A stretch of 64,000 bases of DNA, from assembly GCA_020053275.1 (NCBI GenBank), contig JAGVNL010000026.1:6416-70415 (forward strand), read 5' to 3'. A program made the translations under genes and the position numbers. Shown here in pieces: positions 3,943 through 63,330 of the stretch. The notes beneath the pieces were generated by a model. The model was not told the origin of the DNA. It ran no database searches and saw only the letters and a list, made by a program, of their open reading frames with translations. Position 1 is the first letter of the stretch; every line of letters starts with the position of its first letter. Origin of the DNA: a bacterium (GTDB lineage: Bacteria > Patescibacteriota > Patescibacteriia > UBA9934).

Positions 3943-3983
3943 TTGACGACGCTCATCTAGCACTCTATACTTACGACTGCTAA
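3943..3983 (+). promoter_or_regulatory. sigma-A type promoter (TTGACG-N17-TATACT) overlapped by a CIRCE-like inverted repeat (CTAGCACTC-N9-GACTGCTAA), the HrcA operator upstream of clpB
   Basis: TTGACG at 3943-3948, 17-nt spacer, TATACT at 3966-3971. The inverted repeat at 3957-3983 matches the CIRCE consensus TTAGCACTC-N9-GAGTGCTAA in 15 of 18 positions. The same architecture precedes hrcA. Confidence 0.6.
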
Positions 3984-35068: not shown

Positions 35069-35641
35069 ATGACCATCCCCCTTCTCACCTTCCTCGCCCT
35101 CTTCACACCAACCGCCGCGGCTGGAGTGTCCGCCCAACTCAACATCAAAGTTGCAGGTAGCGCCAAACTCACGGAGAAGATTGACCTCGGCGTGTTCGCC
35201 AACGCCATGCTACTACCCGGTACCACCGCCTACTACTGCACCTACACTGGCCCAGGATTCCAGCTCACCCCGTGGTGGTGGGCAAGCCCCCGTGGTGGCG
35301 TCATCCTCAACTGGCCGGCCACCGGCCAAGCATCGCCCATCGCCTCGCTCTGGAACTACTTCACGCTCCACGGCGGCGACCTCTCGCTCTTCACGGAAAC
35401 CGAGGTATACCCGTTGCCAGGCGGCGGCGTTGACTACTTTGGCTTCTACCAGGCCGACTACAACTTCACGGCGCTGAGCCTTGGACTCATGGCGGAACAG
35501 GTGAACACGAGCATCACGGCTGGGCCAATAGTGTCTTACTCCTTCAACAAGAACCTGAGCGCTGGCGTGGAGTACCACCTCAACCCCCTCGACCTCACCG
35601 CCCAGACCATCCGCGGCAACCTGTCCCTCAAGTTCAACTGA
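35069..35641 (+). CDS. secreted beta-strand-rich protein of unknown function (high-GC islet)
   Basis: AGGAG Shine-Dalgarno 7 nt upstream. Signal peptide 'MTIPLLTFLALFTPTAAAG'. Alternating hydrophobic beta pattern, Trp/Tyr/Gly-rich, ends ...LSLKFN. About 62% GC with a G/C third-position bias. Confidence 0.55.
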   Translation: MTIPLLTFLALFTPTAAAGVSAQLNIKVAGSAKLTEKIDLGVFANAMLLPGTTAYYCTYTGPGFQLTPWWWASPRGGVILNWPATGQASPIASLWNYFTLHGGDLSLFTETEVYPLPGGGVDYFGFYQADYNFTALSLGLMAEQVNTSITAGPIVSYSFNKNLSAGVEYHLNPLDLTAQTIRGNLSLKFN

Positions 35642-35709: not shown

Positions 35710-35737
35710 TACCAAAAATAAAGTATACTTGCAATAT

Positions 35738-36046
35738 ATGATAAATCCAAAAGAACAATTCCCAGCACTTCACGATTTCCTAAGTGCCTACTATCACGAA
35801 GACTGGAATGTGAACGCACAAACAGCAAATAATGTTATAATTCATTTTCTTTCCAACGCCAGTGCATCCGAAATTCCAACTCAAATCGCTGAAGAAATTG
35901 ATGAACTGCTCACAGCTAAAATTAATGATTCGGAACTAAACAACCTAATCTTCGATCATCTTGGTTGTTATTATAGCCCCGAAGCAGATAATCTAACCGT
36001 CCGAGACTGGCTCGCATCAATCGCGAAACAAATGCGTAATCATTAA
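35738..36046 (+). CDS. CdiI-like polymorphic-toxin immunity protein, candidate orphan immunity gene
   Basis: AT-rich (about 36% GC) gene inside a GC-rich islet. 'FPALHDFLSAYYHEDWNVN...ELNNLIFDHLGCYYSPEAD...RDWLASI' matches, from memory, the pattern of CDI-system immunity families (F/YxxAYFHQDW...LGxYY...W). TATACT sits 8 nt before the ATG. The ORF-track start is a TTG three codons earlier. Confidence 0.4.
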   Translation: MINPKEQFPALHDFLSAYYHEDWNVNAQTANNVIIHFLSNASASEIPTQIAEEIDELLTAKINDSELNNLIFDHLGCYYSPEADNLTVRDWLASIAKQMRNH

Positions 36047-36557: not shown

Positions 36558-36995
36558 CTACTGGGCCTTCGTTAAGACATACATCGCGATTCCACTGGCT
36601 ACCGAGACATTCAGCGACTGCTTCTTGCCCATGGGGATAACTACCAATCCGTCGAGTAATCGCCGAGTTTCAACATCAATTCCCGCCACTTCGTTGCCTA
36701 ACACCAGCGCAATTTTTCTCACTCCAATCACCCCAATATCCTTTGCCTCATCCCCCGTTTCCAAACCGAGCACAGTGTAACCCGCCGTCCGGCACTCGTC
36801 GATAGCTTGGCTAATCTCAGCCTTAACCCAGTCAACCAAAAGCTCGGCACCCAAAGCGACCTTAGCAATCTCCTTGCGTGGCGGCGTCTCCGTAAACCCC
36901 GTCAAATATAGCTTTTCTATGTTAAAAGCAGCCGCATTACGGAATATACTACCAACATTGTGCAGGCTGCGAATGTCGTGGACGATAATGATCAT
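36558..36995 (-). CDS. SpoU/TrmH-family tRNA 2'-O-methyltransferase (TrmL-like)
   Basis: 145 aa SPOUT fold. 'LGNEVAGI' and 'SLNVSVASGIAMY' motifs. Confidence 0.75.
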   Translation of the reverse strand: MIIIVHDIRSLHNVGSIFRNAAAFNIEKLYLTGFTETPPRKEIAKVALGAELLVDWVKAEISQAIDECRTAGYTVLGLETGDEAKDIGVIGVRKIALVLGNEVAGIDVETRRLLDGLVVIPMGKKQSLNVSVASGIAMYVLTKAQ

Positions 36996-37078
36996 AGCGG
37001 TGTGAGCATACTAGGATTAGCCAAAAACGACAATTTCTGGCATAGTCGCGGCAAATCAACCTGTAATCTCAATTCAAT

Positions 37079-38233
37079 ATGAGCCAGTTCCCTACTCTCC
37101 GTACCAACCTTTGTCCCAACCCCGACCTCTGCGGCAGCTGCGGCTGGTCACATATTCCCTACGACAAACAGCTCCAACAAAAAATGTCGGACATTAACGG
37201 CAGCTTTGCGATCAAAAAATTACGCTACCAGGTCGAGGAAATTATTGGCGCTAACCAAACCGAACACTACCGCAACCGCATGGACTTCGTAATTGACTTC
37301 CAAGGTAAAGTTGGCCTACGCGAAAAAGGTAAATGGTGGAGCGTGATTGACGACCACACCTGCTTCCTGGGCGACGAGAAAATCGAAGAGCTCTTCCACA
37401 CTACCCGTACCTGGAGCAAAACCGCCGGCCTCACCTTCTTTGACCGCAAAGCCCATACCGGCCTACTCCGTTACGCCGTCATTCGTGCCACGAGCACTGG
37501 CGAAAGCATGATTACCATCGTGACTAGTGCGCCAACAGACGAAATCGAAAAAGCCGCCATCACCACAGCCCTACAGAATTTAGCCGAAGTCTCCAAGGCT
37601 ACCACCGTTGTTTGGTCAATCAATCACACTATTACTGATGTCAGTTTCGGCGACGAGCTCATTACCATCACGGGTGAGGGCGTAATCAACGAGGAAATCG
37701 GTGGTGTTAAGTATTGCATTTCACCTAATGCCTTCTTCCAAACAAACTCCCACATGGCCGCCGTGCTACTCGACACCGTCCGCGAGTTTGCTGGCGACCT
37801 AACAGATAAAACTCTACTCGACCTCTACTGCGGCACTGGTTTCTTTGGCCTAGCCCTCGCCTCCCATGCTAAAAAAACCATCGGCGTAGAACTTAACGCC
37901 GACGCCATCAAGGATGCCAAGGTCAACGCCGCCATAAATAAAGTCGAAATTGACTTCCACGATTTCGCCACAGAAAAGTTTGATTGGATGTCGCTCGGCG
38001 CCGATGTCGTAATTCTCGACCCACCTCGCAGCGGCATGCACGACAAAGCCCTGGCCGACATCATCGCCACTAAACCAGAACGCATCGTCTATATCTCCTG
38101 CAACTACAAAAACTTCGCCCGCGAGCTAGTACAACTGCAAACCTACTACACCATCGAATCCATGCGCGCCATTGATATGTTCCCCCACACTCCCCATGTA
38201 GAACTGGTCACCGCCCTTGTCCGTCGTCCATAA
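37079..38233 (+). CDS. RNA (uracil-5-)-methyltransferase, RlmD/RumA/TrmA family
   Basis: N-terminal Cys cluster 'CPNPDLCGSCGWSH', SAM motif 'DLYCGTGFFGLALA', 'ILDPPRSGM', and catalytic 'YISCN'. Confidence 0.8.
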   Translation: MSQFPTLRTNLCPNPDLCGSCGWSHIPYDKQLQQKMSDINGSFAIKKLRYQVEEIIGANQTEHYRNRMDFVIDFQGKVGLREKGKWWSVIDDHTCFLGDEKIEELFHTTRTWSKTAGLTFFDRKAHTGLLRYAVIRATSTGESMITIVTSAPTDEIEKAAITTALQNLAEVSKATTVVWSINHTITDVSFGDELITITGEGVINEEIGGVKYCISPNAFFQTNSHMAAVLLDTVREFAGDLTDKTLLDLYCGTGFFGLALASHAKKTIGVELNADAIKDAKVNAAINKVEIDFHDFATEKFDWMSLGADVVILDPPRSGMHDKALADIIATKPERIVYISCNYKNFARELVQLQTYYTIESMRAIDMFPHTPHVELVTALVRRP

Positions 38234-58196: not shown

Positions 58197-58237
58197 TTAG
58201 CAGTCTATAGTATAGAGTGCTAACTATTCTTCGTCAA
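58197..58237 (-). promoter_or_regulatory. hrcA promoter (TTGACG-N17-TATACT on the minus strand) overlapped by CIRCE (TTAGCAGTC-N9-GAGTGCTAA)
   Basis: CIRCE at 58197-58223. The -10 is the complement of 58209-58214 and the -35 the complement of 58232-58237. Same architecture as the clpB promoter. Confidence 0.65.
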
Positions 58238-58245
58238 TAGTCATT

Positions 58246-59910
58246 TTAGGCCGCTTTTTGCTGCTTCGCGAGCTTCCGCCAACCGCTTTTTGCAATTTTC
58301 TTCTCTTTTAAGTACTGCCCCAAATGCTCGCCACCTAACACACTCGGAATAACAGCATAGGTTGCACCGAGCTTATAACAACGCGCTGCCTCCTCCGCAT
58401 TTTTTACAGTTACGATAATCGTCCCGTGAGCATGATGAGTTCGTAGGTAATCAAGCAAATCGATAGTAACTAGAATATCAGGAATAGTAGAAATTATCAG
58501 CTTCGCTCTAGCTACGCCAATAAAATGCAAAAGATCATCGCTCCCAGCGTCGCCATACATTGCAGCTATACCAGCACTCGCCAACTCTTCAATCACGACT
58601 GGATTATAATCGACAACCAGAGATGTGCCTGTCATTTTTTTAAGTTGCGGCCACAACCTACGGCCAGAGCGGCTATAACCAAAAAGTATATAATCCGCCA
58701 CCTCGGCAGACCGCTTGTCAATATGCTTACCAAGACCAAAGCGTTCCAGAACAACAGAGAAGTGTTCGTAAAGCTGTTCGTTGTAAGCAATAAAATATGA
58801 CGACAGCGTAATCGTAATCAACGCAACAATGGTAGCTAGAGCAAGCGAACTCTGCGTTACCAAACCAGCAGCAATTCCAGCCGTCAATAAAATAAATGAG
58901 AACTCACTAATCTGCGCCATGGTCGTACCAGTCAAAAAAGCAGTTCGTGGATGATAGCCTAATAACCGCATCAGTAACCAAGCGATAAGCGGATTACCCA
59001 CTAGAATATAGAGACTGATGACCACAGCCGGCAAGAGCAAAGCCTGCAAACTGCCGAGCGTCAACCCAGTACCGAGTACGATGAAGAATATAATGAGAAA
59101 AAAATCGCGCAGCGTTCGAATCTTTGCTTCAATCTCGTGCTGAAATCCACTAGCTGCCAAACTAATACCAGCCAACAACGCACCAATTTCAATACTAAAA
59201 CCAATATTAAGTAATATCGACGCCACCGCAAAACACCAACCAAGCGCCACCAAAAATAGTAATTCTTGCGAACGAGCAACAAACTTAAACAATAACGGCA
59301 ACACCGTTTTTGATAATAAGAAAAGGGCAACAACTACCAATACGCCCTTAACTAGTGATGTTGTTACAATTTGCGAAATAGAACCACCGTCATGCCAAGC
59401 ACCAAGCATGAGTAGCGCAAACATGGCCATCATGTCCTGCACAATTAGCATGCCGACGCTGATCCGACCGTAAAGCCGATCAAGGTCGTCTTTATCCGAC
59501 AGCAGCTTAACAATAATGATGGTTGACGAGAATGAAAACGCTAGGCCTAAAAATAAGCTCGTCGTTGTATCAAACCCAAGTGCGGTAGTAATGCCGTAAC
59601 CAATCGCGGAAGTAATAATCACCTGACAAATACCACCAATAAGAACAACTGGCCCGACATCACGAATACTCCGCCAATTCAGATTCAATCCCACAATAAA
59701 CAACAAGAGCGCAATCCCAAACTTTGACAAGCCACCAAGCACATCCGTGGACTGCACCAAGTTCATCACCCCCGGCCCCACCAATACACCAGTCAAAATG
59801 TATGCAATAATCAGCGGTTGCCTTAATTTATACGCCAAAATTGCGAGTATTCCCGCTATCACCATGACAACTCCCACCTCTACAAATAAATACTCCATCA
59901 TAGCCTCCAA
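58246..59910 (-). CDS. monovalent cation:proton antiporter (CPA2, Kef-type) with a C-terminal TrkA-N/RCK domain
   Basis: 554 aa. About 12 TM helices plus a C-terminal Rossmann-like 'GYSRSGRRL...' RCK domain. Confidence 0.8.
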   Translation of the reverse strand: MEAMMEYLFVEVGVVMVIAGILAILAYKLRQPLIIAYILTGVLVGPGVMNLVQSTDVLGGLSKFGIALLLFIVGLNLNWRSIRDVGPVVLIGGICQVIITSAIGYGITTALGFDTTTSLFLGLAFSFSSTIIIVKLLSDKDDLDRLYGRISVGMLIVQDMMAMFALLMLGAWHDGGSISQIVTTSLVKGVLVVVALFLLSKTVLPLLFKFVARSQELLFLVALGWCFAVASILLNIGFSIEIGALLAGISLAASGFQHEIEAKIRTLRDFFLIIFFIVLGTGLTLGSLQALLLPAVVISLYILVGNPLIAWLLMRLLGYHPRTAFLTGTTMAQISEFSFILLTAGIAAGLVTQSSLALATIVALITITLSSYFIAYNEQLYEHFSVVLERFGLGKHIDKRSAEVADYILFGYSRSGRRLWPQLKKMTGTSLVVDYNPVVIEELASAGIAAMYGDAGSDDLLHFIGVARAKLIISTIPDILVTIDLLDYLRTHHAHGTIIVTVKNAEEAARCYKLGATYAVIPSVLGGEHLGQYLKEKKIAKSGWRKLAKQQKAA

Positions 59911-59970
59911 TCTATGATAAGATTATAGCACATTATTTTGACCTCACCCCTACTCCCCACTTAATTTATT

Positions 59971-60405
59971 TTGTTTCTTTACAATATGGACAAAAAAGAT
60001 TTGGTGGCAATATCCACCATTGTTACGAACGCAATTCAAGCCACGGTACCAAACATGATCGAGTCCGTAATCAAGAAAACGGTACCTGGCATGATTGAGG
60101 CTGCCATCAAGAAAACTGTACCTGACATAATCGAATCGGGAATCCAGAAAACAGTACCAGGCATGATACGAGAAACCGTCAAAGACTTACTCGAACAGAA
60201 TAACCACATCTTTAAACTGGAACTGCGTGACGAAATGTACGCCATGAACAAAGCCATGGAAAATCGCCTGACCAAAAAAATCGAGGACACCAGATCCGAA
60301 ACCATCACCGACATCGGCGAAATCCTTGACCAATCAATCCTTCCACAAATCGGCAACCACGAGCACCGTCTCTTTAAAATCGAAAATCGTCTAGCAATTT
60401 GCTGA
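59971..60405 (+). CDS. hypothetical protein with four tandem 11-residue repeats (I/V-x-K-K-T-V-P-x-M-I-E)
   Basis: 'TVPNMIESVIKKTVPGMIEAAIKKTVPDIIESGIQKTVPGMIRETVKD', followed by a coiled-coil-like tail. Confidence 0.5.
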   Translation: MFLYNMDKKDLVAISTIVTNAIQATVPNMIESVIKKTVPGMIEAAIKKTVPDIIESGIQKTVPGMIRETVKDLLEQNNHIFKLELRDEMYAMNKAMENRLTKKIEDTRSETITDIGEILDQSILPQIGNHEHRLFKIENRLAIC

Positions 60406-60427
60406 CCTGTTGGCTTGCTGTAGAGTC

Positions 60428-60460
60428 ACAAAAATACCTGACATCTGTCAGGTATTTTTT
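60428..60460. terminator. bidirectional rho-independent terminator between the repeat-protein gene and tRNA-Glu
   Basis: Perfect stem aaaaatacctgaca-tct-tgtcaggtattttt. Confidence 0.65.
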
Positions 60461-60534
60461 GGTGACTCTACCGGGAATCGAACCCGGATTAAAGGCTTGA
60501 GAAGCCTCTGTCCTAACCGTTAGACGATAGAGCC
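60460..60534 (-). tRNA. tRNA-Glu (anticodon CUC), CCA encoded
   Basis: GGCTCTA...TTCGATTCC...TAGAGTC-A-CCA. Anticodon loop UUCUCAA. Confidence 0.75.
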
Positions 60535-60658
60535 ATGCTCTTAATTTCGTGCGAAGTGTAGCAAAACTAAGAATAAAAACAAGACCCCACGCCAGAAACG
60601 ACACGAGGCCGCTCCGGGTGGAGTACCTGTCGCCTAGCACGGGGTAGAAGTTCGCAGC

Positions 60659-61243
60659 CTACTGGCCATCAGCCTCGACTGTAGCGAAATAGTCGAACAC
60701 CGCCTGGTTGTTGCTGATCTTGGCTACAACCATGACACTATCAATGGCCTGCCAGCCGAGTGCCAAGCCAATCAGGTGATCCGCCAGCTCGTCGACAGGT
60801 GAAGCAAAACCCGAGGTCGAGACGATCCGTTCGCACTCCCCCATACGAACAGCACCCTGGTAGATGTGCTCCATGGAGTTGCGGCTACTCGTGTCCTGGA
60901 TCTCGAAGCTGAGGACACGGTCGTCGTACAAGCTGAGGCTGTACCCCTTCTTGATGCTGTGAAAGCCGTAGCGCAGCGACTGGTCCGCACTGATGTCGCC
61001 GATGGACACCACACAGATCAGCTTCCAGTGCGTGATTGGTTCGATCACCTTCTCCCACAGGGCAACGCAACAACCAGTGTCGGTTGGGTCGCCGCGCAAG
61101 GCGATGGGGATGACGATGTCTGTCACCACCCGGCGAGCAACCGCTGCAAAATGAGCCATGAAGGCTTCTTCTCGAGGAGTTCTTTTGATGTCGTCAATAA
61201 GCAAAGTAGCCTCACAGAGTTGAGTATGCCACAGGGAATCCAT
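60659..61243 (-). CDS. hypothetical protein in a high-GC islet, divergent from 61398-62147
   Basis: 194 aa; about 58-60% GC with GC3-biased codons; no motif. Several overlapping shadow ORFs were ignored. Confidence 0.45.
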   Translation of the reverse strand: MDSLWHTQLCEATLLIDDIKRTPREEAFMAHFAAVARRVVTDIVIPIALRGDPTDTGCCVALWEKVIEPITHWKLICVVSIGDISADQSLRYGFHSIKKGYSLSLYDDRVLSFEIQDTSSRNSMEHIYQGAVRMGECERIVSTSGFASPVDELADHLIGLALGWQAIDSVMVVAKISNNQAVFDYFATVEADGQ

Positions 61244-61280
61244 AGCAATACCATCAGACTAACAGAATATATTGCTTGCG

Positions 61281-61313
61281 TCCACTTAGTGGAGTCGTCT
61301 TCCACTAAGTGGA
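61281..61313. promoter_or_regulatory. double-palindrome operator-like site (TCCACTTAGTGGA-N7-TCCACTAAGTGGA) in the divergent promoter region
   Basis: Two 13-bp self-complementary half-sites in mirrored arrangement between the two GC-rich genes. Confidence 0.5.
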
Positions 61314-61397
61314 ATGAGTTGACCAAAAAACTAAAATGGGCTAATCTCAGCCTCGTCGATTGCTGGCAATCAAGCCAAAACTCGACCTGGAGCACTC

Positions 61398-62147
61398 ATG
61401 TCCATCGAACTCGTCAAAACTGAGCCAGCCAACCCAACCTCACAGGACGACAACACGAGCCTGGAACTCCACGGCCTCATGCCTCGCCCGTATATCGACA
61501 TCGTCCTCGAGCACCTAGCACTGCTCGCCGACACTCCCCGTTGCGACTGGCTGGCCGGCAATGTCCCCTTCGGCCAGTTGCCTCCCAACCTGCAGGGTCT
61601 CGCCGAGCTGCTGATCTGCGACGAGCTGGCCTGTCTGATTGGCCTGTTCATCCCCGAGGGCATCCGCGCCACCACCTGCAACAAGATCGTGCGCTACCTC
61701 AAGGCCATCAGCAAGAAGGTCAGCGGGATCGACAACCGTCTGTGCGTTGCCCTCGCCATCACCTGGTTCAACGACTACCGACGAGACAGGCAGAGCCTCA
61801 GTCCACAGATCCTCGACGCCGATCAGCGTGCCATCAACGCCATCACGGCGCTGAACCACGAGCCGCTAGCTCGCTGGTCGTTCAACAGTCGTACCTACAA
61901 GGAGCTCAACTCTGAGGGCAATGTGGCTATCCACGACTTGGTGGAGAACACCGTCGTCTGGCGCATCGACCGTATGGTCAAGCGAGTAGAGATCCCGGCC
62001 AGCCGCCGCCCCGCCACCTGCCATCGCCTGATCAGCGAGCTCAAGCATCTCAACGACTGGCGCGTCAGTAGAGCCTCGAACCGTCAGGTTGTTCTGCACA
62101 ACCAGGTCTGGCTCGCCCGCTACCGTGAAGGGTTGCTGCGGCCATGA
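61398..62147 (+). CDS. hypothetical protein in a high-GC islet
   Basis: 249 aa, GGAG 8 nt upstream, own terminator, strongly GC3-biased codons (ctc, gac, ggc, atc, aag). Confidence 0.5.
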   Translation: MSIELVKTEPANPTSQDDNTSLELHGLMPRPYIDIVLEHLALLADTPRCDWLAGNVPFGQLPPNLQGLAELLICDELACLIGLFIPEGIRATTCNKIVRYLKAISKKVSGIDNRLCVALAITWFNDYRRDRQSLSPQILDADQRAINAITALNHEPLARWSFNSRTYKELNSEGNVAIHDLVENTVVWRIDRMVKRVEIPASRRPATCHRLISELKHLNDWRVSRASNRQVVLHNQVWLARYREGLLRP

Positions 62148-62152
62148 CCCCT

Positions 62153-62190
62153 GTCTCCCCTCGCTTCGGCGAGCGGGAGACTCCTTTTTA
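62153..62190 (+). terminator. rho-independent terminator after 61398-62147
   Basis: gtctcccctcgc-ttcg-gcgagcgggagac followed by tcctttttatg. Confidence 0.6.
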
Positions 62191-62208
62191 TGTTATACTT
62201 TTCGTAGT

Positions 62209-63330
62209 ATGAACCACGAATCCCTACAACCAAGAATAGATATTGATAAGGGTAGTATTATATTTCTACCTGACGCTGATAAAACAAGAACTCACCGAAA
62301 TAAATTAGACACACTCCGAGTAGCTGAACGCAACCGAATATTGCGCGAAGAACACAACAAACTGCTACAAATAGAAAGGAGTCAATCAGAAAACGACGAT
62401 ATAATTAAAACCACAGTTTTCCACGATGTTCTAAGAATGCAAAGCGAACTAGATTTTGATACTCGTGTCGTCGACTATTACAATAACCTAGCTGACAAAC
62501 GAGCCACTGCCTGGGAAGCTGGCGATCCAAAAGCCATTCACAATCTACAGATCAAAATTACCACACTAAGCAAAATCGCGCCGCTGCAAATCTCAGGGTT
62601 AGCTGCCGCCGACACCTCAAAAACATGGTATAATAAAAACAATATGACTGAAAAATTTTCCCAAAGCACAGCCGACCACGACTGGCAAGCACCCCGTCCC
62701 ACAATCGGTGAGCTACCAACCCCTGATTATCGTGGCGTTCACGCCAAAGAAGTCCATTCTGCACCAAATACCTTCGGCCGCGAAGCTTATTTGCATAACA
62801 TAAAACAACAAGACGCTGACATTGCAAACCTCGCAAAAACAGAAATACATAAAGATCTGCAAAATCTAGACCTCGATGTTTATAGCCGTGGCCTAAACAA
62901 AAGAATTAAATCTATAGAAAACAACATGGAAGACGCACCCGATTCCGACATTCGGGAATTACAATTACTTCGCGAAAAGCAAAAAGAAGTAAATGCAAGA
63001 TTAGCTATAAAGCCAGCAGCAGGCGTGCCAAAATTAGATAGTCAATTCGCCAGACGCCAAGAAATCGAAAAAGTTCGTCGCGAAGCAACAAAAATTATCG
63101 ATCAAATTAAATCCGTTACAGCCGAACGAGCTAAGCTGAGCTCCTGGAACCCCTTCAACTGGAGCCGCATTCGCGATCTTGATACTCACCTAGACACTCT
63201 CAAATCACGCAAGGAAGAATGGCAACTTCGCTCTAAGAGCAACGCCCTCCAAGAAAAACTATTCGCATCAAAAACCCCAGAATACAAAATTAACGACGAA
63301 GCAGATTTAGAAGAGTTGGAAACTGGCTAG
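62209..63330 (+). CDS. hypothetical coiled-coil-rich protein (AT-rich, host-like codon usage)
   Basis: Start placed at the first ATG after the terminator (373 aa); the ORF-track start lies inside the previous gene. Lys/Glu/Gln-rich with heptad patterns. Confidence 0.45.
   Translation: MNHESLQPRIDIDKGSIIFLPDADKTRTHRNKLDTLRVAERNRILREEHNKLLQIERSQSENDDIIKTTVFHDVLRMQSELDFDTRVVDYYNNLADKRATAWEAGDPKAIHNLQIKITTLSKIAPLQISGLAAADTSKTWYNKNNMTEKFSQSTADHDWQAPRPTIGELPTPDYRGVHAKEVHSAPNTFGREAYLHNIKQQDADIANLAKTEIHKDLQNLDLDVYSRGLNKRIKSIENNMEDAPDSDIRELQLLREKQKEVNARLAIKPAAGVPKLDSQFARRQEIEKVRREATKIIDQIKSVTAERAKLSSWNPFNWSRIRDLDTHLDTLKSRKEEWQLRSKSNALQEKLFASKTPEYKINDEADLEELETG

What the first reader, a model, noticed from the sequence alone, without database searches (positions are those of the whole stretch)
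60659..62190. High-GC divergent gene pair controlled from a shared double-palindrome operator
Two unknown proteins (194 aa and 249 aa) are encoded divergently. Both have about 60% GC and GC3-rich codon usage foreign to this genome. The 154-bp region between them contains TCCACTTAGTGGA-N7-TCCACTAAGTGGA, in which each 13-mer is itself palindromic. This is a classic autoregulated divergent-promoter layout. The module is bounded by tRNA-Glu on one side and a strong terminator on the other. Neither protein shows a recognisable motif, so this is a candidate novel acquired two-gene module, possibly a regulator plus effector or a toxin plus antitoxin.
Basis: seen in the sequence. Interest (0 to 1): 0.6.

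Follow-up and report, generated by a model that had tools for sequence, protein, structure and literature searches.

The report
GC-rich variable island beside tRNA-Glu
The two GC-rich genes are this genome's short version of an old, fast-evolving island that related uncultured Patescibacteria carry at the same spot; only the 194-aa gene and the double palindrome are unique to this genome, and their function is still unknown.

Summary
Two divergent ORFs (194 aa, 249 aa) have GC3 of 0.70 and 0.81, against 0.49 ± 0.08 for 52 other ORFs in the window. A perfect 13-N7-13 inverted repeat lies between them, with tRNA-Glu on one side and terminators at both ends.

The interpretation as a recently acquired two-gene module is only partly supported.
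- **The 249-aa protein (orfB)** is the single local copy of a family confined to one Patescibacteria clade. Four related lineages carry 2-6 tandem copies at this same locus. Their islands are equally GC3-rich, although synonymous divergence exceeds 1.
- **Structure of orfB:** it is two tandem ~110-aa helical repeats with no conserved catalytic residues and no homolog in Pfam, NCBIfam, PADLOC or the PDB.
- **orfB expression signals:** it has its own promoter and a structured-leader cassette. The same cassette precedes island genes in relatives that lack the palindrome.
- **The 194-aa protein (orfA) and the palindrome** occur only in this genome. The palindrome overlaps the candidate orfA -35 and ends 5 nt upstream of the orfB -35.

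The palindrome is therefore best read as an operator that arrived with orfA. No helix-turn-helix was detected in either protein, and orfA is acidic, so the binding protein is unknown. There is no integrase, no att repeat, no toxin-antitoxin signature and no high-GC donor. Interest is moderate.

The parts
60460..60534 (-). tRNA-Glu (anticodon CUC). It is the conserved left anchor of the island.
   Evidence: ARAGORN and Rfam tRNA at 63 bits. The same tRNA flanks the island in L001, L009, L010, L069 and L200.
60535..60565 (-). Conserved block upstream of the tRNA, presumably its promoter. This is the last DNA that aligns with relatives before the island.
   Evidence: blastn homology to L001, L009, L010 and L069 (82-87% identity) ends at window 60565.
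60573..60610 (-). Intrinsic terminator after orfA: hairpin 60610..60583 followed by a T-run.
   Evidence: Terminator scan. RNA fold gives -22.9 kcal/mol, z = -3.4.
60659..61243 (-). orfA, 194 aa. An acidic (pI 4.8) soluble protein with no known relatives, unique to this genome.
   Evidence: The GC3 > GC1 > GC2 pattern appears only in this frame. No homologs found. pI. The single-sequence AlphaFold2 model has pLDDT 43 and is unusable.
61256..61293 (-). Candidate orfA promoter. Either TCCACT-16-TATATT (61293..61266) or TGGACG-17-TAGTCT (61284..61256). In both, the -35 overlaps the left dyad.
   Evidence: Relaxed consensus scan and reading of the sequence. These are consensus matches only, not shown experimentally.
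61281..61313 (.). Double dyad TCCAC-TTA-GTGGA / N7 / TCCAC-TAA-GTGGA. It contains four TCCAC half-sites, and the two dyad centres are 20 bp apart (two helical turns). Candidate operator.
   Evidence: Absent from all relatives. As RNA it would fold at -21 to -23.5 kcal/mol, but no T-run follows it.
61319..61347 (+). orfB promoter: -35 TTGACC (61319-61324), 17-nt spacer, -10 TAATCT (61342-61347).
   Evidence: The same TAAYCT hexamer sits in the invariant block GCTAAYCT upstream of every + strand island gene in relatives. L021 has TTGACT-17-TAATCT. This is an inference from conservation.
61340..61400 (+). Island-specific promoter and leader cassette. Outer stem GTCGA 61355-61359 / TCGAC 61382-61386. 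Inner stem TGGC 61364-61367 / GCCA 61374-61377. Shine-Dalgarno GGAG 61389-61392. ATG at 61398.
   Evidence: Covariance model R1 scores 59.7 bits here and nowhere else in the window; 15 strong hits in all, every one inside the islands. Pair counts: 78.5% of cells paired against 70.2% in shuffles (0 of 500 shuffles as high) and 18-34% with slid partners.
61398..62147 (+). orfB, 249 aa. The only local member of the island family. Two tandem ~110-aa helical repeats: residues about 26-130 (nt 61473-61787) and about 132-248 (nt 61791-62141).
   Evidence: Family found. Alignment A1. N-half against C-half by hhalign: probability 99.3%, E = 4.6e-20. Repeat profile A2 hits both halves of every member.
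62153..62191 (+). Intrinsic terminator after orfB: stem 62153-62181 followed by TCCTTTTTAT.
   Evidence: RNA fold gives -25 kcal/mol, z = -4.9. It resembles the terminators between genes in relatives (...CTTCCTTTTT).

Best explanation
**What the region is.** Window ~60566-62200 is this genome's minimal version of an old, vertically inherited, fast-evolving, GC3-rich island. A clade of Patescibacteria, whose closest genomes are labelled 'Candidatus Uhrbacteria', carries it between tRNA-Glu(CUC) and the MurF side of the chromosome.

**orfB.** It is the one remaining copy of the island's signature family here, and the ortholog of the last array member in relatives. It is a soluble protein built from two ~110-aa helical repeats. 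Only hydrophobic and aromatic residues are conserved, so it most likely works by binding something, not by catalysis. It is transcribed from its own TTGACC-17-TAATCT promoter through a short conserved hairpin leader just upstream of the Shine-Dalgarno sequence.

**orfA and the palindrome.** orfA and the 33-bp double dyad are a lineage-specific addition that replaced the rest of the array. The two dyads are 20 bp apart centre to centre, so two dimers, or one tetramer, could bind on one face of the DNA. They cover the candidate -35 of the orfA promoter and end 5 nt upstream of the orfB -35. Occupancy should therefore repress orfA and could also modulate orfB.

**Shown versus inferred.**
- Shown: the anatomy, the synteny, the family and its repeat structure, the persistent composition, and conservation of the cassette.
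- Inferred: promoter positions, operator function, the identity of the binding protein (OrfA autoregulation is the most economical guess, since orfA and the site arrived together), and the biological role of the family.
For: **Synteny.** The order GrpE-HrcA-Kef-small gene-tRNA-Glu-[island]-fast-evolving coiled-coil gene-MurF holds in five lineages. Kef identity to the window ranges from 75% to 86%.

**Homology boundaries.** DNA homology to relatives stops at 60565 and resumes at ~62626 or 63326.

**Composition.** Island GC is 0.56-0.69 and GC3 is 0.64-0.88 in every lineage, against 0.37-0.62 in flanking genes. Island intergenic GC is 0.56 against 0.37 for core intergenic DNA.

**Rates.** Between L069 and L001, core genes have dS 1.4-1.8 and dN/dS 0.02-0.07. 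Family orthologs have dS 1.1-1.3 and dN/dS about 0.3.

**Family distribution.** It has 2-6 tandem copies in relatives and 1 here. It is absent from genera whose Kef is 52-58% identical, and L018 has only 1.1 kb between MurF and Kef.

**Protein features.** Internal duplication. Conserved residues are L43, W51, L61, P86, L101, I104, Y127, W160 and W238 only.

**Cassette.** Covariance-model hits are restricted to the islands, with covariation support.

**Palindrome.** It is not a chance feature, and both it and orfA are unique to this genome.
Against: **No binding protein identified.** Neither protein shows a DNA-binding domain in Pfam or NCBIfam. OrfA is acidic (pI 4.8), and family pI values range from 5.5 to 8.6.

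**Weak promoter calls.** The orfA promoter candidates are weak consensus matches. The stricter scan called no promoter in the intergenic region.

**orfA unconfirmed.** No second genome carries it, so its coding status rests only on ORF length, the codon-position GC pattern and a terminator.

**Leader hairpin.** RNAalifold did not predict it on its own. The sequences are few and related, and the 5' arm starts about at the predicted transcription start.

**Rates.** dS values above 1 are close to saturation, so the rate comparison is approximate.
Confidence: 0.5

Rival explanations
1. This is a recently acquired foreign two-gene module, either a regulator plus an effector or a toxin-antitoxin pair, in which one product autoregulates both divergent promoters through the shared operator.
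For: The layout is divergent with a central operator-like repeat that is not a chance feature. The composition is atypical. orfA and the palindrome are indeed specific to this genome.
Against: orfB was inherited vertically with the locus and is never paired with orfA elsewhere. There are no hits in high-GC taxa. There is no helix-turn-helix and no toxin or antitoxin domain. The sizes (194 and 249 aa) and divergent orientation are untypical of type II toxin-antitoxin pairs. The orfB promoter and leader are conserved without the palindrome.
Confidence: 0.12
2. The inverted repeat acts at the RNA or DNA-structure level and is not a protein operator. For example, it could be a 13-bp hairpin in a long 5' UTR of orfA or orfB that affects stability or translation, or a cruciform or insulator between the divergent genes.
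For: It folds strongly on both strands (-23.5 and -21.1 kcal/mol, z about -5). The island otherwise uses hairpin leaders.
Against: With the conserved TTGACC-17-TAATCT promoter, the orfB transcript starts about 40 nt downstream of the repeat. Each arm is itself a 5-3-5 dyad, which gives four half-sites at 20-bp phasing. A plain hairpin does not need that, but dimeric DNA binders typically do. No T-run follows it on either strand.
Confidence: 0.1
3. orfA is not a real gene. It would be a chance ORF in GC-rich, stop-poor DNA left over from array decay, and the palindrome would be a relic such as a former recombination or insertion scar.
For: There is no homolog and no second genome. No clear Shine-Dalgarno sequence precedes the ATG. 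The antisense frame also has only one stop.
Against: At this GC content about 3% of codons would be stops, so a 194-codon open frame has a chance of roughly e^-6. The frame shows the coding pattern GC3 0.70 > GC1 0.57 > GC2 0.41. A dedicated terminator follows it. No six-frame similarity links the segment to decayed family or island genes.
Confidence: 0.13
4. The dyads are binding sites for a protein encoded elsewhere, such as a global regulator, a DnaA-type protein or HrcA, and have no specific link to orfA or orfB.
For: Neither local protein looks like a DNA binder. TCCAC/GTGGA dyads are widely used in other genomes, for example in TTTTCCACnnnGTGGAAAA pairs and in arrays with a 20-bp period on viral contigs.
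Against: No other copy of the 13-mer, even with 2 mismatches, occurs in 64 kb. The site lacks the TT(A/T)T prefix and the final A of DnaA boxes. This genome's HrcA operator is the canonical CIRCE element, present at 58197-58223 and 3957-3983. The site occurs only where orfA occurs.
Confidence: 0.15

Closest known systems
Flexible or hypervariable genomic islands with conserved flanks, often beside tRNA genes
   Same: Fixed chromosomal position between conserved core genes. A tRNA sits at one edge. Gene content and size vary between close lineages (1.6 to ~7.5 kb). Composition is atypical, and the genes are lineage-specific with no known function. Genomic islands are reported to be common in Patescibacteria (PMC12455944).
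   Different: No integrase, no att direct repeats, and the island lies on the 5' side of the tRNA, not the 3' side. It is GC-richer than the genome, not AT-richer. Ortholog dS is about equal to core dS, which points to vertical descent rather than repeated replacement. High GC3 persists although dS exceeds 1.
Tandem dyad operators between divergent promoters, such as the controller-protein 'C-boxes' of restriction-modification systems or phage repressor operators (comparison from general knowledge)
   Same: Two adjacent dyad-symmetric sites about two helical turns apart, lying between or over back-to-back promoters. This geometry suits cooperative binding by two dimers.
   Different: No small helix-turn-helix gene is present. 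The sequence is unrelated to any operator I could test. No methyltransferase or endonuclease domain was detected. Binding has not been tested.
SAP / helix-extension-helix DNA-binding motif
   Same: The repeat profile A2 matches the SAP domain of SIZ1 (PDB 2rnn) over 47 residues, including a V-x-[IF]-P loop between two helices, at E = 0.0086.
   Different: Only one of the many SAP structures in the PDB is hit, and the E-value is borderline. None of the 13 members matches Pfam's SAP model even at E up to 1. The family's pI is not consistently basic. This is a lead, not a membership.
Arrays of orphan immunity genes for polymorphic toxins
   Same: Tandem, co-directional, highly diverged paralogs of small soluble non-enzymatic proteins in a variable region. 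Each gene has its own expression signals. The same window holds a clear orphan CdiI_2 immunity gene beside another tRNA.
   Different: No similarity to any immunity family. No toxin gene, toxin fragment or recombinase lies nearby. This is analogy only.

Membership tests
Integrase-mediated tRNA-targeting genomic island | A tyrosine or serine recombinase gene within the island | tested here: not met
   Pfam gives no hit for orfA or orfB or for 10 other island proteins of relatives. The gene tables of L001, L069 and L200 show no recombinase family.
Integrase-mediated tRNA-targeting genomic island | Direct repeat of the tRNA 3' end at the far boundary, with the island on the 3' side of the tRNA | tested here: not met
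   The island abuts the 5' side of tRNA-Glu. The repeat search found only short imperfect two-copy matches.
Recent horizontal transfer from a high-GC donor | Closest homologs in high-GC taxa or mobile elements | tested here: not met
   A full HMMER scan of 1.84 billion representatives finds orfB relatives only in this clade and at this locus. orfA has no match in the 5.8-billion protein set (word-indexed search), in phages, in plasmids or in viral contigs.
Recent horizontal transfer from a high-GC donor | The island is absent from close relatives, or its divergence is out of step with the core genome | tested here: not met
   The island is present in all five lineages. Family dS is 1.1-1.3 against core dS of 1.4-1.8.
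Type II toxin-antitoxin module | A known toxin or antitoxin domain and a co-directional, usually overlapping, small gene pair | tested here: not met
   No Pfam, NCBIfam or PADLOC hit. The genes are divergent, 154 bp apart, and encode 194 and 249 aa.
Helix-turn-helix autoregulator with divergent operator | A recognisable DNA-binding domain in one of the two proteins | tested here: inconclusive
   No sequence-level hit. The structure models are too poor to judge (pLDDT 39 and 43). There is one weak SAP-like match.
Helix-turn-helix autoregulator with divergent operator | Specific binding of the protein to the dyads | not testable with these tools
   This needs EMSA, footprinting or reporter assays.
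DnaA-box cluster | 9-mers close to TTATCCACA, several per cluster, near dnaA or a GC-skew switch | tested here: not met
   The sites read GCGTCCACT and TCTTCCACT. Cumulative GC skew is monotonic across the window. No further copies exist.
CIRCE / HrcA operator | TTAGCACTC-N9-GAGTGCTAA | tested here: not met
   Canonical CIRCE sites lie elsewhere, at 58197-58223 and 3957-3983. The finding's repeat does not match within 3 mismatches.
Known Rfam RNA family (for the palindrome or the orfB leader) | A covariance-model match | tested here: not met
   Only the tRNA scored in 59900-62600 at E up to 1.
SAP domain (Pfam PF02037) | A match to the family model | tested here: not met
   None of 13 family members matches at E up to 1. 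There is a single borderline PDB hit.

The most novel reading that the evidence does not exclude
The island would be a long-lived local hotspot of recombination or gene conversion. Its GC3, and even its intergenic GC, would be actively held about 20-30 points above the genome, for example by GC-biased gene conversion. It would encode a diversifying family with a previously unseen two-repeat helical fold, each gene driven by a dedicated promoter plus structured-leader cassette. In this genome an orphan gene (orfA) with its own four-half-site operator would have been recruited as a new regulator of the locus.
Probability: 0.12. Interest if true: 0.6.

Novelty: new variant of a known kind. Interest (0 to 1): 0.38.

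Why it matters
The original claim of a novel acquired regulator-effector pair would have been a modest curiosity, and it is mostly not borne out.

The region does offer three things:
1. A clean example, in a streamlined uncultured Patescibacteria clade, of a chromosomal island that keeps a foreign-looking composition although it has diverged alongside the core genome for a long time. Standard amelioration reasoning does not predict this, and it cautions against reading high GC3 as recent transfer.
2. A clade-restricted protein family with a clear internal duplication and no detectable relatives, which is a candidate new fold.
3. A compact, conserved promoter and leader cassette that could help define promoters and 5' UTR regulation in organisms where neither is known.

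The orfA-plus-dyad unit is a small, directly testable case of a protein with no known relatives sitting next to a high-quality operator-like site.

Tried and rejected
- **Structure prediction.** Single-sequence AlphaFold2 gave pLDDT 39 and 43. The Foldseek search with the orfA model gave nothing below E = 0.26.
- **Word-indexed homolog searches.** They returned only the query itself for both proteins. The profile search with A1 added just one known member.
- **Exact-sequence look-ups.** Look-ups of the window's own proteins found no contig on record.
- **Dyad scan of viral and metagenome contigs.** It returned many sites, but they are unrelated classes: TTTTCCACnnnGTGGAAAA pairs at 22-bp spacing in clusters, which look like inverted DnaA boxes, and iteron-like arrays with a 20-22 bp period. 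None lies near an orfA or orfB homolog. One near-identical site, in L141, sits in a high-GC contig near an Xre/ImmA pair and is probably coincidence.
- **PDB searches.** Sequence and profile searches gave only chance-level hits for orfA (glycosylasparaginase, E = 0.085) and for A1.
- **P0010.** The 1322-aa hit is a repetitive surface protein and a spurious match.
- **Operators in relatives.** I looked for analogous palindromes in the divergent intergenic regions of relatives' islands and found none.
- **PD-(D/E)xK nuclease motif in orfA.** I considered D83...E114-x-Q116. It rests on a low-confidence secondary structure and nothing else, so I dropped it.
- **Outer leader helix (CCTCAG/CTGAGG) that would hide the Shine-Dalgarno sequence.** Only 65% of cells are paired, and its 5' arm overlaps the -10, so it is not claimed.
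- **Leader-versus-gene incongruence as evidence of recombination.** It is only suggestive. Two adjacent L069 leaders are 98% identical, and the L001 fam251 leader is closest to a non-orthologous L069 leader.
Full report
**1. Observation**

The coordinates and features are correct. orfA (60659-61243, minus strand, 194 aa) and orfB (61398-62147, plus strand, 249 aa) diverge from a 154-bp spacer.

Composition:
- orfA has GC 0.56 and GC3 0.70. orfB has GC 0.61 and GC3 0.81. The window GC is 0.475.
- Against 52 other ORFs in the window (GC3 0.493 ± 0.080), the two genes lie at z = 2.6 and z = 4.0.

The spacer holds TCCACTTAGTGGA-N7-TCCACTAAGTGGA at 61281-61313. The arms are exact reverse complements of each other. 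Each arm is a 5-3-5 near-dyad whose centre, TTA or TAA, is not self-complementary.

The repeat is not a chance feature. Only three perfect inverted repeats of 12 nt or more with short loops exist in the 64-kb window. The other two are A/T-flanked bidirectional terminators. No shuffle of the window gave a 13-nt arm.

The flanks:
- tRNA-Glu(CUC) lies at 60460-60534.
- Terminators close both genes. The one after orfA is on the minus strand at 60610..60583. The one after orfB is at 62153-62181 plus a T-run.

**2. Organism and locus**

The Kef-like neighbour was used as an anchor. It recovers 61 loci. The nearest are Patescibacteria MAGs, several labelled 'Candidatus Uhrbacteria bacterium', with Kef 85-86% identical.

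A full HMMER scan of 1.84 billion representative proteins found only six real relatives of orfB, at 24-33% identity. Every one of them maps to the same chromosomal place. The order there is:

GrpE - HrcA - (small ORF) - Kef - small repeat protein - tRNA-Glu(CUC) - [island] - fast-evolving Lys/Glu-rich protein - MurF - PBP

Five lineages are now known: the window, L001/L009, L069 (same genome as L004 and L008), L010, and the more distant L200 (Kef 75% identical).

DNA homology between the window and its relatives stops 31 bp beyond the tRNA's 5' end, at 60565. It resumes only inside the downstream gene or at MurF.

Genera whose Kef is 52-58% identical lack the family. L018 has only 1.1 kb between MurF and Kef, and L029 has housekeeping genes there.

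**3. The island is old but stays GC-rich**

In every lineage the island has GC 0.56-0.69. Its genes have GC3 0.64-0.88 with normal GC2 (0.37-0.49; 0.56 in the Pro-rich 102-aa gene). Flanking genes have GC3 0.37-0.62. Island intergenic DNA is also GC-rich, at 0.56 against 0.37 for core intergenic DNA. The bias is therefore regional, not a codon-level effect.

Island size varies:

| Lineage | Island size |
|---|---|
| Window | 1.6 kb |
| L010 | ~2.8 kb |
| L001 | ~4.4 kb |
| L069 | ~7.5 kb |

Nei-Gojobori estimates between L069 and L001:

| Genes | dS | dN/dS |
|---|---|---|
| Kef, MurF, PBP (core) | 1.4-1.8 | 0.02-0.07 |
| Three family ortholog pairs | 1.1-1.3 | ~0.3 |

The low protein identity of island genes is 50-59% between lineages whose Kef is 95-97% identical, and 31-33% to the window. 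It reflects weak or diversifying constraint, not separate acquisition. The island has been resident for longer than one synonymous substitution per site without drifting to the genomic composition.

What maintains the GC is unexplained. GC-biased gene conversion in a recombining tandem array is one candidate. Near-identical leaders in front of very different neighbouring genes (98% identity) hint at conversion. These dS values are near saturation and should be read as approximate.

**4. orfB**

Relatives carry 2-6 tandem, co-directional copies. The window has exactly one, and no other ORF of 60 aa or more in the 64 kb matches the family profile. It groups with the last array member of each relative.

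Alignment A1 (13 sequences) conserves only L43, W51, L61, P86, L101, I104, Y127, W160 and W238. No polar catalytic residue is conserved.

The protein is an internal duplication. The N-half aligns with the C-half at hhalign probability 99.3%, E = 4.6e-20. This defines a ~110-residue all-helical repeat with the consensus P-x-P-x-H ... W-x-x-G ... L-x-E ... G-V-x-I-P-x3-R ... N-R ... W-L-x-x-Y (A2).

Other properties:
- There is no signal peptide or membrane segment, and pI ranges from 5.5 to 8.6.
- Pfam, NCBIfam, PADLOC and PHROGs gave no credible match; the best score was a chance-level PHROG hit at E = 0.21. PDB sequence searches gave only chance-level hits.
- The repeat profile gives one borderline hit to the SAP domain of SIZ1 (E = 0.0086). 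Pfam's SAP model does not support it, so I keep it only as a lead.

My inference is a non-enzymatic binding protein under rapid diversification. Its target is unknown.

**5. A conserved promoter and leader cassette**

Upstream of orfB and of every plus-strand island gene in relatives lies the block GCTAAYCTNAGSCNCGTYGA..., followed by about 40 nt and then the start codon.

The TAAYCT hexamer is best read as the -10:
- Relatives carry TG-n-TAACCT, an extended -10, directly after the previous gene's terminator.
- The window has instead a good -35: TTGACC (61319-61324), 17 nt, TAATCT (61342-61347).
- A locus from another genus, L021, shows TTGACT-17-TAATCT.

The leader can form a two-tier hairpin. 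In the window the outer stem is GTCGA/TCGAC (61355-61359 with 61382-61386). The inner stem is TGGC/GCCA (61364-61367 with 61374-61377). The Shine-Dalgarno GGAG follows at 61389-61392.

Pair counts on A3:
- 78.5% of cells are paired, against 70.2 ± 1.8% in shuffles (0 of 500 as high).
- With slid partners the figure is 18-34%.
- Five pairs show changes on both sides. One pair is CG in 5 sequences, GC in 4, AU in 1 and GU in 1.

A covariance model (R1) finds 15 strong matches of 40-76 bits. All lie inside the islands, one was new, the only one in the window is at 61340-61400, and none falls in other genera.

Caveats: RNAalifold alone did not call the structure. The sample is small and its sequences are related. 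The 5' arm begins about at the predicted transcription start. The symmetric GTCGA...TCGAC could equally be a DNA site. There is no Rfam match.

**6. orfA and the double dyad**

orfA has no detectable relative:
- in the word-indexed search of 5.8 billion proteins;
- in the relatives' islands, by tblastn at E up to 10 and by tblastx;
- in phage or plasmid records or viral contigs;
- in the PDB.

Its frame shows the coding pattern GC3 > GC1 > GC2, and a terminator follows it. It is probably a real gene, but this is unconfirmed. The protein is acidic (pI 4.8, net charge -11) and soluble.

The dyads are absent from all relatives, and the 13-mer occurs nowhere else in the window even with two mismatches. 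The relatives' own divergent intergenic regions have no comparable repeat.

orfB's promoter and leader are ancestral, and orfA plus the dyads are unique. The dyads therefore most probably came with orfA.

Geometry:
- There are four TCCAC half-sites, with the two dyad centres at 61287 and 61307, 20 bp apart. Two dimers could sit on one face of the DNA.
- The left dyad overlaps both candidate orfA -35 elements: TCCACT-16-TATATT and TGGACG-17-TAGTCT (and the sequence).
- The right dyad ends 5 nt upstream of the orfB -35.

The simplest mechanism is repression of orfA, with possible modulation of orfB, by a dimer-of-dimers. OrfA autoregulation is the most economical guess, but nothing in its sequence supports DNA binding.

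HrcA is excluded as the binding protein, because canonical CIRCE elements are present elsewhere, at 58197-58223 and 3957-3983.

Scanning public contigs for the dyad architecture returned many sites, but of unrelated classes, and none lies next to homologs of either protein.

**7. Comparison with known systems**

- **Integrative island:** no recombinase, no att repeat, and the wrong side of the tRNA.
- **Toxin-antitoxin pair:** no such domains, and the layout is wrong.
- **Known defence system:** no PADLOC hit.
- **Closest analogy for the locus:** a flexible or hypervariable chromosomal island, unusual in being GC-rich and vertically inherited.
- **Closest analogy for the site:** tandem dyad operators between divergent promoters.
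- **Orphan immunity arrays:** the arrays of diverged small soluble paralogs recall these. The same window carries a genuine orphan CdiI_2 gene beside tRNA-Arg. No sequence evidence links the family to them.

**8. Verdict**

The 'recently acquired two-gene module' framing does not hold.

The finding is a new variant of a known kind of feature. It comes with three by-products of moderate interest: persistent GC3 elevation, a new two-repeat protein family, and a conserved promoter and leader cassette. Function remains inferred. The decisive tests are alignment-based structure prediction, transcription-start mapping and binding assays.

Noticed in passing
window 58197-58223 and 3957-3983: Canonical CIRCE elements (TTAGCAGTC-N9-GAGTGCTAA with 1 mismatch, and a second with 2 mismatches). 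They lie upstream of the hrcA-grpE-dnaK operon and of an 883-aa ORF. HrcA heat-shock control therefore appears intact in this Patescibacteria genome.
   Followed up: partly
window 35069-35641 (+): A second strongly GC3-rich gene (GC 0.61, GC3 0.81), encoding a 190-aa protein with a signal peptide, much beta-strand and a C-terminal ...LSLKFN. It has no Pfam hit and is unrelated to orfA. It lies about 0.8 kb from tRNA-Arg, so small GC-rich patches recur in this genome.
   Followed up: partly
window 35729-36046 (+): An orphan CdiI_2 contact-dependent-inhibition immunity protein (Pfam PF18593, E = 2.6e-20). No CdiA-type toxin was identified nearby (not systematically searched), and the gene lies between the GC-rich gene above and tRNA-Arg.
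   Followed up: no
window 59971-60405 (+); L001 1738-2184; L069 3283-3663 and 5366-5734: The small protein between Kef and tRNA-Glu carries tandem ~11-aa repeats (I-x-x-T-V-P-x-M-I-x). Repeat number varies between lineages, and the gene is duplicated in L069.
   Followed up: no
window 62209-63330 (+) and homologs L001 7622-9025, L069 14190-15524: The low-GC gene flanking the island on the MurF side evolves even faster than the island family. It is 39% identical between lineages whose Kef is 97% identical, with dN 0.59. It is rich in Lys and Glu and has no Pfam hit.
   Followed up: partly
L080-L159 (metagenome contigs), e.g. L098, L104, L112: A very common motif class, TTTTCCAC-N3-GTGGAAAA, occurs in pairs 22 bp apart, often as clusters of 3-9 within a few hundred bp. 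They look like head-to-head DnaA boxes at replication origins of some lineage.
   Followed up: no
L074 9895-10007; L078 13145-13237; L140 7374-7466; L073 770-848 (viral contigs): Arrays of 4-6 TCCAC-N3-GTGGA dyads at exact 20- or 22-bp periodicity, resembling iterons or centromere-like sites of phages or plasmids.
   Followed up: no
L141 2021-2053: A near-identical double dyad (TCCACTTGGTGGA-N7-TCCACTAAGTGGA, inside a longer inverted repeat) in a high-GC contig. It lies between an Xre-type HTH plus ImmA-like metalloprotease pair and an MBL-fold hydrolase. There are no orfA or orfB homologs there.
   Followed up: partly
L069 9156-9869 (+): An intact family gene, identical to P0007 of L006, was not called in assembly GCA_964355955.1. 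Three minus-strand ORFs were called over it instead. This is a gene-calling artefact typical of GC-rich DNA.
   Followed up: partly
L008, L011, L012, L015, L019 and other record titles: Several MAGs that clearly belong to Patescibacteria, by synteny and protein identity, are titled 'uncultured Gammaproteobacteria bacterium' in their public records. These are probably mislabelled.
   Followed up: no
L200 4720-4794; L018, L022, L029: tRNA-Glu(CUC) is in the opposite orientation relative to Kef in L200 and in other genera, compared with the window, L001, L010 and L069. This implies a small inversion at the island edge in the window's subclade.
   Followed up: no
window 36810-36823 (+): The only other GCTAATCTCAG match in the window. 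It lies in the 36558-37079 region next to tRNA-Arg and matches only the promoter part of the cassette (13.8 bits). It may be an ordinary promoter of the same -10 type.
   Followed up: no
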